Shown: one piece after another, positions 1,871 through 2,712 of the stretch
How the letters are laid out: every line of letters begins with the position of its first letter
Numbering within the stretch: the stretch's first letter is position 1
From: Azoarcus sp.
GTDB lineage: Bacteria > Pseudomonadota > Gammaproteobacteria > Burkholderiales > Rhodocyclaceae
Assembly: GCA_041595655.1 (NCBI GenBank)
Contig: JBFHJY010000001.1
Location: forward strand, 1 to 34,139
Length of the DNA: 34,139 nt
Direction of reading: 5' to 3'
The notes under the pieces: generated by a model
Told to the model about the DNA's origin: nothing
Database searches by the model: none
Seen by the model: the letters and a program-made list of their open reading frames with translations, nothing else
Position numbers and translations under genes: made by a program

Positions 1871-1912
1871 ATTGTTCCATCACGGGAAGCAGCGGTATTT
1901 GATCTGGATGAA
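1871..1912 (-). promoter_or_regulatory. FNR/Anr/Dnr box with class II promoter for ubiT
   Basis: TTGAT-CTGG-ATGAA at 1899-1912 (9/10 match to TTGAT-N4-ATCAA). An extended -10 TGgAACAAT (minus, 1879-1871) places the box centre near -41.5. Confidence 0.7.
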
Positions 1913-1938
1913 AAAAAAGGCGGCCACAAGGGCCGCCT
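1911..1938 (-). terminator. Rho-independent terminator
   Basis: Minus strand reads aGGCGGCC-cttgt-GGCCGCC followed by T8. Confidence 0.85.
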
Positions 1939-2072
1939 GAACAATCCTTCCCATGGAGGCTAGCGGCCGGGGGTGGGGAATTGGGCCGTAGCGGGAAGGA
2001 GAGAGAGCCGGTACGGGCAGGTTGTCCAGGTGCGGGAGGAGGTCGCACAAGAACAGCCAGCCAAGCCGTCTT
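1911..2072 (-). ncRNA. Candidate ~160-nt structured sRNA with C/U-rich anti-SD loops
   Basis: Upstream TTGCGG-N18-GATAAT. Hairpin GTGCG[ACCTCCTCC]CGCAC, second stem TCCTTCCC/GGGAAGGA enclosing CGGCC[CAATTCCCCACCCCC]GGCCG, then an intrinsic terminator. No credible ORF. Confidence 0.55.
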
Positions 2073-2079
2073 GGAGGCC

Positions 2080-2109
2080 ATTATCTATTACTTTAGATAT
2101 AGTCCGCAA
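2080..2109 (-). promoter_or_regulatory. Sigma70-like promoter with an overlapping palindrome, upstream of the candidate sRNA
   Basis: TTGCGG (2109-2104), 18-nt spacer, GATAAT (2085-2080). Inverted repeat TATCTA-N6-TAGATA at 2082-2099 in an AT-rich patch. Confidence 0.5.
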
Positions 2110-2128: not shown

Positions 2129-2213
2129 TGGTGCGCCGGAAGGGACTCGAACCCCCACGCCTTGCGGCACTGGAACCTAAATCCAGCGTGTCTACCAATT
2201 CCACCACCGGCGC
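2129..2213 (-). tRNA. tRNA-Leu (anticodon TAG), 85 nt, CCA encoded
   Basis: GCGCCGG acceptor, GGAATTGGTAGACAC D-arm, CTGGA-TTTAGGT-TCCAG anticodon arm, long variable arm, GGTTCGAGTCC T-arm, ends CCGGCGCACCA. Confidence 0.97.
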
Positions 2214-2265: not shown

Positions 2266-2712
2266 TCAGAGCTTCTCGATCAGCGCCTCGGTGCGGCCGA
2301 TATTGTCGCGGTGAGTTTCGAGCATTTCCTGCAGGCCTTCGCGCATGTGGGCATACGGCACGCGCGGCAGGGCCTTGGCCACTTCGCGGGCCACCCAGCC
2401 CTGCCCGCGGTTGAGGAAGGCCAGGCGTTCGGCCTTGCCCTCGACGGCCAGCGCCTTCTCGGCGAAGGAGCCGGTGTTCTTGCTGATGTCGGCGCCGAGT
2501 TCGCGCAGGTAGTCGAACATCAGCCGGCAGTACTTGCCCTCGTCGTGGCGCGAGGCGACGACCAGCTCGACGGCCTGCTCGTTGCCGGTGAAGTCCTTCT
2601 CGTACTCGGTCAGTACCTTGACGCCGGCGCGCTCGCATTCGAGCAGCGTGTTGAACAGCTCGGCCAGCTCGGCATCGGTCATCGGGGTGGTGTTGGCTTC
2701 TTCGTGGCTCAT
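2266..2712 (-). CDS. Small ferritin-like four-helix protein (DUF6306-like)
   Basis: LLECERAG...HDEGKYC...FLNRGQGWV...MLETHRDNI pattern. Strong RBS AAGGAGGA. Last gene of the nsrR-hmp run. Confidence 0.7.
   Translation of the reverse strand: MSHEEANTTPMTDAELAELFNTLLECERAGVKVLTEYEKDFTGNEQAVELVVASRHDEGKYCRLMFDYLRELGADISKNTGSFAEKALAVEGKAERLAFLNRGQGWVAREVAKALPRVPYAHMREGLQEMLETHRDNIGRTEALIEKL

What the first reader, a model, noticed from the sequence alone, without database searches (positions are those of the whole stretch)
1911..2072. Unannotated structured sRNA with anti-Shine-Dalgarno loops between tRNA-Leu and ubiT
Seen (minus strand): a promoter (TTGCGG-N18-GATAAT); hairpin 1 TGTTC-TT-GTGCG[ACCTCCTCC]CGCAC-CT-GGACA; a CTCTCTCT linker; hairpin 2 TCCTTCCC-GCTA-CGGCC[CAATTCCCCACCCCC]GGCCG-C-TAGC-CTCCAT-GGGAAGGA; and a GC stem with T8. 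Known: CCUCCUCC-in-loop modules occur in alphaproteobacterial cuckoo sRNAs, and RBS-complementary motifs occur in Burkholderia toxic sRNAs. Inference: this is a trans-acting multi-seed translational regulator in an anaerobiosis/NO locus. I do not recognise it as a named family.
Basis: partly seen in the sequence, partly recalled or inferred. Interest (0 to 1): 0.8.

Follow-up and report, generated by a model that had tools for sequence, protein, structure and literature searches.

The report
Small RNA with one matched target
One genus of denitrifier-type betaproteobacteria keeps a conserved, uncatalogued gene for a predicted small RNA whose unchanging 14-base stretch is the exact complement of a conserved site in front of one distant, unknown protein gene, so it likely switches that gene down, although no transcript has been seen.

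Summary
The sequence is as described (minus strand, folding z = -4.1, no Rfam family at its cut-off). Homologues were found only in the window's own genus (4 of 5 other genomes plus metagenome contigs). The promoter and the 3' ~105 nt (CU linker, hairpin 2, terminator) are conserved. The link to ubiT is not obligatory, because ubiT has its own FNR-type promoter and two lineages have another gene downstream. The invariant CUCUCUCUCCUUCC has one perfect complement elsewhere in the genome, 50 nt upstream of an unlinked 74-aa unknown gene. The same site sits in the same leader in 3 of the 4 other genus genomes that carry that gene, and ranks first of 635 orthologue pairs (14 nt against 9 for the next). 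Best reading: a genus-specific, likely Hfq-type sRNA built like the RF02278/S17 double-hairpin RNAs but not a member, which likely represses this one target from upstream of its ribosome site. Expression, pairing and the sign of regulation are untested; G003 lacks the full site.

The parts
2129..2213 (-). tRNA-Leu(TAG), upstream neighbour and integration site in relatives; not part of the sRNA
   Evidence: ARAGORN, Rfam; insertions separate it from the sRNA in G001 and G002
2080..2109 (-). Predicted sigma70-type promoter TTGCGG-N18-GATAAT
   Evidence: Same spacing and TTGC..[GC]ATAAT in G001, G002, G005, L172/L178, L179; absent in G003. Not called by the consensus scan
1911..2073 (-). Predicted sRNA, about 163 nt (start inferred from the -10 element)
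   Evidence: Fold z -4.07; predicted length 163 nt also in G005 and L178, 243/232/132 nt in G001/G002/G003
2012..2068 (-). Variable 5' domain including hairpin 1; stem kept in G000/G005/L178, loop ACCUCCUCC (2043-2035) not conserved
   Evidence: 6 pairs with changes on both sides among 3 sequences
1994..2007 (-). Conserved seed CUCUCUCUCCUUCC: 7-nt single-stranded toehold plus 5' arm of hairpin 2; exact complement of the site at G000:C9:7327-7340
   Evidence: 13 of 14 positions invariant in 5 of 5 aligned genomes; complement found
1945..2000 (-). Hairpin 2 with C-rich loop (1983-1969); role of the loop unexplained
   Evidence: 17 pairs, 1 with a change on both sides among 7 sequences
1911..1938 (-). 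Intrinsic terminator with U8 tail
   Evidence: 4 of 9 pairs with compensatory change among 7 sequences
1899..1912 (-). FNR-like box TTCAT-N4-ATCAA of the downstream ubiT promoter, overlapping the U tail; belongs to ubiT, not to the sRNA
   Evidence: Conserved before ubiT in G001, G002, G003, each with a TAnnnT element 21-22 nt on; FNR consensus recalled

Best explanation
This is a conserved, genus-specific gene for a predicted small RNA that likely represses one unlinked 74-aa protein gene by pairing its invariant CU-rich seed with a perfectly complementary 14-15 nt site about 50 nt upstream of that gene's start codon. Shown: sequence, conservation, complementarity, position. Inferred steps: (1) transcription from the conserved promoter to the intrinsic terminator, perhaps with trimming of the variable 5' domain as in Bordetella S17; (2) the U tail loads Hfq (hfq is present in 5 of 5 genus genomes searched); (3) the unpaired CUCUCUC toehold nucleates on the predicted single-stranded GGAAGGAGAGAGAG loop of the target leader and opens the base of hairpin 2 (net about -18 to -20 kcal/mol); (4) the duplex blocks a ribosome standby or enhancer site or triggers decay, and the same seed could also cover the target's SD (GAAGGAG, 7-8 nt). 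Weaker SD matches (acpP-like, sodB-like genes) may be secondary targets.
For: Promoter, core and terminator conserved while neighbours change; retained after insertions at the tRNA. One perfect >=12-nt complement of the seed in G000 outside the gene itself. In G001, G002 and G004 the only other exact 13-mer lies in the leader of the same orthologous gene. It is the longest block shared by the four leaders downstream of their promoter. A further homologue's annotated N-terminal extension back-translates to a sequence compatible with the site at -49 (P0003). First of 635 G000/G001 orthologue pairs, 14 nt against 9 for the next. Controls: 2.25% of 400 shuffled seeds have any >=14-nt complement in G000; 478 of 12025 (4.0%) leader 14-mers are conserved in G001. 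Site predicted open, opening energy 0.0-2.6 kcal/mol. Genus g74 has the protein but not the site (5 of 5 leaders), and no sRNA match was found in the 4 genomes searched.
Against: No transcript: none of 8 runs laid had an RNA contig over the gene (contigs cannot show absence). Seed and site are both invariant, so there is no compensatory co-change. G003 has both genes but only an 8-nt match, at -191. G005 has the RNA but the target gene was not found (80% complete); G004 has the site but no RNA was found (76% complete). Half of the seed is buried in a stem (opening 8.5-9.9 kcal/mol). Blocking the site leaves the modelled RBS opening energy almost unchanged, so the sign of regulation is a default, not a result. 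G001, G002 and G004 are close kin. I tested three segments before finding this match. The conserved hairpin-2 loop remains unexplained.
Confidence: 0.5

Rival explanations
1. A broad anti-SD regulator like S17/RF02278 that represses many mRNAs at their ribosome-binding sites, the 74-aa gene being only one target or a chance best match.
For: Same skeleton as RF02278: 5' CU-rich segment, UCC...GGA stem, GGAUU, terminator; G001 and G002 homologues score 24 bits on RF02278. AAGGAGAG occurs in 7 start regions against 0.28 expected if uniform. Conserved 8-9 nt SD matches in acpP-like and sodB-like genes (gene names recalled from the translations).
Against: Any anti-SD word is enriched at starts. Duplex energies over 1785 start regions (-40..+20) were no better than shuffled segments. 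The genome already has a true RF02278 member.
Confidence: 0.2
2. The pairing is real but works differently: the long LysR-controlled leader is a decoy that titrates the sRNA, or binding stabilises the mRNA or changes termination at the leader hairpin.
For: The site is displayed in a loop 37-52 nt from the start, away from the RBS; predicted leaders are long (138-230 nt); the leader stem is followed by a short U tract (U7 in G003); modelled RBS access does not change on binding.
Against: No direct evidence; perfect duplexes upstream of the RBS are known to repress (PMC7534054, first of three parts read).
Confidence: 0.15
3. The element is the 3' trailer and terminator of the tRNA-Leu transcript with no role of its own, and the complement is a coincidence between two purine/pyrimidine tracts.
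For: No terminator lies between the tRNA and the element in G000; always found near tRNA-Leu(TAG); narrow range; no RNA evidence.
Against: Own conserved promoter; kept intact about 9.7 kb (G001) and 4.4 kb (G002) from the intact tRNA; core far more conserved than flanks; only 84 of 16384 possible purine-only 14-mers exist in G000.
Confidence: 0.1
4. A cis-acting leader or attenuator of ubiT, or a dedicated anaerobic/NO regulator.
For: ubiT follows in G000, G001, G002, G003; G003 has a perfect FNR-like box before the RNA.
Against: ubiT has its own FNR-like promoter after the terminator; G005 and L172/L178 have another gene downstream; no FNR-like box at the sRNA promoter in the other lineages; no match at 27 ubiT loci of other genera.
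Confidence: 0.04

Closest known systems
Betaproteobacterial 'toxic' double-hairpin sRNAs, Rfam RF02278 (Burkholderia ncS03/05/27/62; Bordetella S17)
   Same: Unpaired 5' CU-rich segment, hairpin closed by UCC...GGA, GGAUU, then terminator; C-rich loop; S17 also has a long variable 5' part from a TTGC-type promoter and a conserved 3' part (PMC11722255, first of eight parts and passages; PMC5688073, passages).
   Different: Scores 24 bits against a cut-off of 50 in G001/G002 and is not among the 12 listed hits in G000; hairpin about 56 nt instead of about 23; different seed; genus-restricted; a true RF02278 member exists separately at G000:C46:10373-10441 (56.6 bits); best target site lies upstream of the RBS and is 14-15 nt.
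Cuckoo RNAs (RSs0680/CcsR, ar14) of Alphaproteobacteria
   Same: Hairpin 1 of this genome reads CCUCCUCCC (last C pairs in the stem).
   Different: Cuckoo RNAs carry the motif in each of 2-4 hairpin loops and were found in alphaproteobacteria (PMC4615179, first of six parts and passages). Here it is in one loop of one genome and absent from homologues.
sRNAs that repress from upstream of the RBS: IstR-1/tisB standby site, GcvB and SgrS enhancer masking
   Same: Predicted perfect duplex at a single-stranded site in a long structured leader of a small protein gene (mechanisms as reviewed in PMC7534054, first of three parts).
   Different: The two genes are unlinked (about 1.49 Mb apart in G001); the protein is a soluble all-beta fold, not a hydrophobic peptide; toxicity untested.

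Membership tests
RF02278 toxic/double-hairpin sRNA | Covariance-model score at or above the gathering cut-off (50 bits) | tested here: not met
   24 bits in G001 and G002; not listed for G000
RF02278 toxic/double-hairpin sRNA | Double hairpin with unpaired CU-rich 5' end and loop, GGAUU before terminator | tested here: met
   compare the true member
RF02278 toxic/double-hairpin sRNA | UGUCUCCUCCACC-type 5' seed as in the genome's own member | tested here: not met
   Seed here is CUCUCUCUCCUUCC
RF02278 toxic/double-hairpin sRNA | Hfq binding, RNase E processing, repression of RBS-overlapping targets | not testable with these tools
   hfq present in 5 of 5 genomes; no transcript data
Cuckoo RNAs | CCUCCUCCC in each of 2-4 adjacent hairpin loops | tested here: not met
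   One loop only; hairpin 2 loop differs
Cuckoo RNAs | Loop motif conserved while stems vary | tested here: not met
   The reverse holds: stem covaries, loop varies
Type I toxin-antitoxin (tisB/IstR-1 kind) | Long perfect complementarity to a site in the leader of a small protein gene | tested here: met
   14-15 nt in 4 of 5 genus leaders
Type I toxin-antitoxin (tisB/IstR-1 kind) | Antitoxin gene adjacent to the toxin gene | tested here: not met
   G001 positions 1781090 and 294276 on one contig
Type I toxin-antitoxin (tisB/IstR-1 kind) | Small hydrophobic membrane peptide | tested here: not met
   74 aa, hydrophilic, all-beta model, pLDDT 85
Type I toxin-antitoxin (tisB/IstR-1 kind) | Protein inhibits growth, relieved by the RNA | not testable with these tools
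   Needs expression in a laboratory strain

The most novel reading that the evidence does not exclude
A genus-born, unlinked sRNA-small-protein switch: a paralogue-like offshoot of the RF02278 double-hairpin class has specialised on one target, a LysR-controlled 74-aa beta protein of no known family whose level must be tightly held (an antitoxin-like relation across 1.5 Mb), using toehold strand displacement at a displayed leader loop.
Probability: 0.15. Interest if true: 0.75.

Novelty: new variant of a known kind. Interest (0 to 1): 0.5.

Why it matters
Almost no base-pairing sRNAs with targets are described for this family of denitrifying betaproteobacteria in the papers my searches listed. 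This gives a new sRNA family with an unusually specific, mutation-testable target prediction and gives a handle on an unannotated protein family. It is also a possible case of how a broad anti-SD sRNA design narrows to a single target within one genus. It does not point to a new class of mechanism unless the target proves toxic or the leader proves to be a decoy or attenuator.

Tried and rejected
Rfam: no family at cut-off besides the tRNA; best over the element SorX 18.4 of 46.6 bits. Homologues outside the genus: BLAST over 301 family genomes gave only short weak matches; the covariance model over 150 genomes gave at most 32.3 bits outside the genus, and of 27 of the 28 such hits inspected 7 were RF02278-type RNAs and the rest terminators or other 3' ends (only 25 candidates scored per genome); a GTDB-wide and a metagenome pattern scan gave 70 + 13 stretches, 8 of 83 real, the rest at most 19 bits; 57 syntenic loci of other genera (tRNA-Leu, ubiT, DUF6306) gave nothing above 10.8 bits. 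Homologues with a changed seed would be missed. Single copy in G000, so not a repeat. No conserved small ORF with an SD in the RNA. Target scan limited to -40..+20 gave no signal over shuffles and excluded the real site. Complements of hairpin-1 and hairpin-2 loops: no excess over reversed-pattern controls or no conserved partner. A second pairing in G000 between the hairpin-2 loop and a GGGGAA loop in the target leader is not kept in G001/G002/G004. An in-frame GTG at -27 in four leaders could use the site as SD, but P0003's extension has no Val or Met at that codon. Expression: 8 runs laid as contigs, no RNA contig over the gene; uninformative. Target protein: no Pfam, NCBIfam or PDB sequence hit, Atlas feature hits under 0.9 and unnamed, Foldseek no hit at E<=0.001, VIA best Z 5.5 to phage Bas11 Gp54, below the level that means kinship. 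Literature searches (listings only unless named) showed no description of this RNA; supplements were not read and sRNA tables there could list it.

Full report
Observation. The strand folds into the three hairpins with z = -4.07. The terminator is called, the promoter is below the scan's threshold. Rfam has nothing at cut-off over the element. Neighbours are tRNA-Leu(TAG), a DUF6306 gene upstream of it, and ubiT, ubiV, a flavohaemoglobin and an Rrf2/NsrR-like gene nearby.

Range. Homologues occur in 4 of the 5 other genomes of the genus (G001, G002, G003, G005 at 101-129 bits; none found in G004, 76% complete) and on five metagenome contigs. Record titles name Pseudazoarcus pumilus and Azoarcus sp. 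Nothing credible was found outside the genus by BLAST in 301 family genomes, by covariance model in 150, by a pattern scan of the GTDB species set or at 57 syntenic loci. In other genera the tRNA is often followed directly by what looks like the trigger-factor gene (about 13 of 23 loci by eye, motif recalled).

What is conserved. The 3' ~105 nt are about 80% identical by column, with TCTCTCTCCTTCC and GGAAGGATT invariant; the 5' part is 48%. The promoter TTGC-N20-[GC]ATAAT is kept in five of six lineages; G003 instead has a perfect TTGAT-N4-ATCAA box 22 nt before TAAGCT (FNR consensus recalled). G000, G005 and L178 all predict 163 nt. Among these three, the 5' stem including hairpin 1 shows 6 pairs changed on both sides (the structure was derived from these sequences), but the loop reads differently in each and no other lineage has a CCTCC word there. 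In the core, 98.3% of cells pair across 7 sequences, with 1 compensatory pair in hairpin 2 and 4 in the terminator. So structure is supported; the anti-SD loop of hairpin 1 is a private feature of this species.

Independence from neighbours. In G001 a phage-like element of about 9.7 kb and in G002 about 4.4 kb of other DNA lie between the intact tRNA and the element, which keeps its promoter. G005 and L172/L178 have a different gene downstream, and where ubiT follows it has its own FNR-like box after the terminator. The element is therefore best read as its own transcription unit.

Family. The genome has a true RF02278 member elsewhere (56.6 bits; sequence). The homologues in G001 and G002 are the second-best RF02278 hits in their genomes at 24 bits, aligning the 5' UCUCUCC, the GGAUU and the terminator with a 40-nt insertion. 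Bordetella S17 is made as a 190-nt RNA from a TTGCAT promoter and trimmed by RNase E to a conserved C/U-rich 67-nt form that represses at RBSs with Hfq (PMC11722255); Burkholderia double-hairpin RNAs are described alike (PMC5688073). This RNA is built like them but fails the score and seed tests. Cuckoo RNAs need the motif in each loop (PMC4615179), which fails.

Target. A scan of start regions (-40..+20) gave no signal. A genome-wide search for long complements found one 14-nt perfect match to the invariant seed, at G000:C9:7327, 50 nt before a 74-aa ORF that lies divergent from a LysR gene. In G001, G002 and G004 the only exact 13-mer besides the RNA gene itself lies in the leader of the same gene, extended to 15 nt. 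P0003's N-terminal extension is compatible with the site at -49. Among 635 G000/G001 orthologue pairs, drawn from the first 1.6 of 3.2 Mb of G001, it ranks first with 14 nt against 9. Chance rates are 2.25% for a shuffled seed to have any such complement and 4.0% for a leader 14-mer to be conserved; I had tested three segments. The site is predicted unpaired in a leader hairpin, and the net energy after opening both RNAs is -18 to -20.5 kcal/mol. The protein was found in 10 of 401 family genomes, 5 in this genus and 5 in genus g74; g74 leaders lack the site and 4 g74 genomes gave no sRNA match. It has 14 close homologues and 8 cluster representatives, a confident all-beta model and no named relative.

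Against. G003 has both genes and only an 8-nt match at -191. There is no compensatory change between seed and site. Modelled RBS access hardly changes when the site is bound, so repression is inferred from precedent for upstream-acting sRNAs (PMC7534054). The hairpin-2 loop has no conserved partner. No RNA contig covers the gene in 8 runs, which neither supports nor excludes expression. hfq is present in 5 of 5 genomes but binding is untested.

Verdict. A real, conserved, uncatalogued sRNA gene (about 0.85 likely expressed as such), pairing with the 74-aa gene's leader at about 0.65, repressing it at about 0.5. It is a new variant of the known CU-rich double-hairpin class. Earlier scan notes held nothing at this place or like this sequence; one word match describes a C-rich sRNA beside tRNA-Leu in another group, which I did not test. 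Six literature searches listed no description; supplements were not read.

Noticed in passing
G000:C46:10373-10441 (L058): A true RF02278/S17-type sRNA (56.6 bits), also over cut-off in 4 of 5 other genus genomes; its GGAGACA complement is at 15 start regions in G000.
   Followed up: partly
G000:C9:7377-7601 (L235:2878-3102): 74-aa all-beta protein of no known family, divergent from a LysR gene, with a conserved promoter block AGCATACTACAT; found only in genera g1 and g74 among 401 family genomes.
   Followed up: yes
window 2080-2103 (-): The promoter spacer is more conserved than the transcribed 5' part and carries a dyad TAT.T-N10-A.ATA overlapping the -10 element (perfect TATGT-N10-ACATA in G002 and L172/L178), a possible repressor site.
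   Followed up: no
L033:1440-1490 (G003): Promoter swap: G003 has a perfect FNR-like box and -10 before a shorter (about 132 nt) version of the RNA, so it may be anaerobically induced in that lineage only.
   Followed up: partly
L031:450-9880 (G001): Integrase-bearing phage-like element inserted at tRNA-Leu(TAG) with a duplicated tRNA 3' part at its far end, just before the sRNA promoter.
   Followed up: no
L074 and L087: 3' ends of a flagellar switch-like gene (name recalled from sequence) in two other genera carry CTCCTCC, a hairpin, GGAT and a terminator, resembling 3'UTR-derived CU-rich sRNAs.
   Followed up: no
window 2266-2712 (-): DUF6306 gene upstream of tRNA-Leu; present in all 3 other genus genomes searched (two copies in G001) but in only 6 of 197 other family genomes.
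   Followed up: no
L249 (G003 target leader): G003's leader has GGGUGGGUG, which could pair with that genome's altered hairpin-2 loop UACCCACCU, and a U7 run just before the SD; other genomes' loops pair there about as well.
   Followed up: partly
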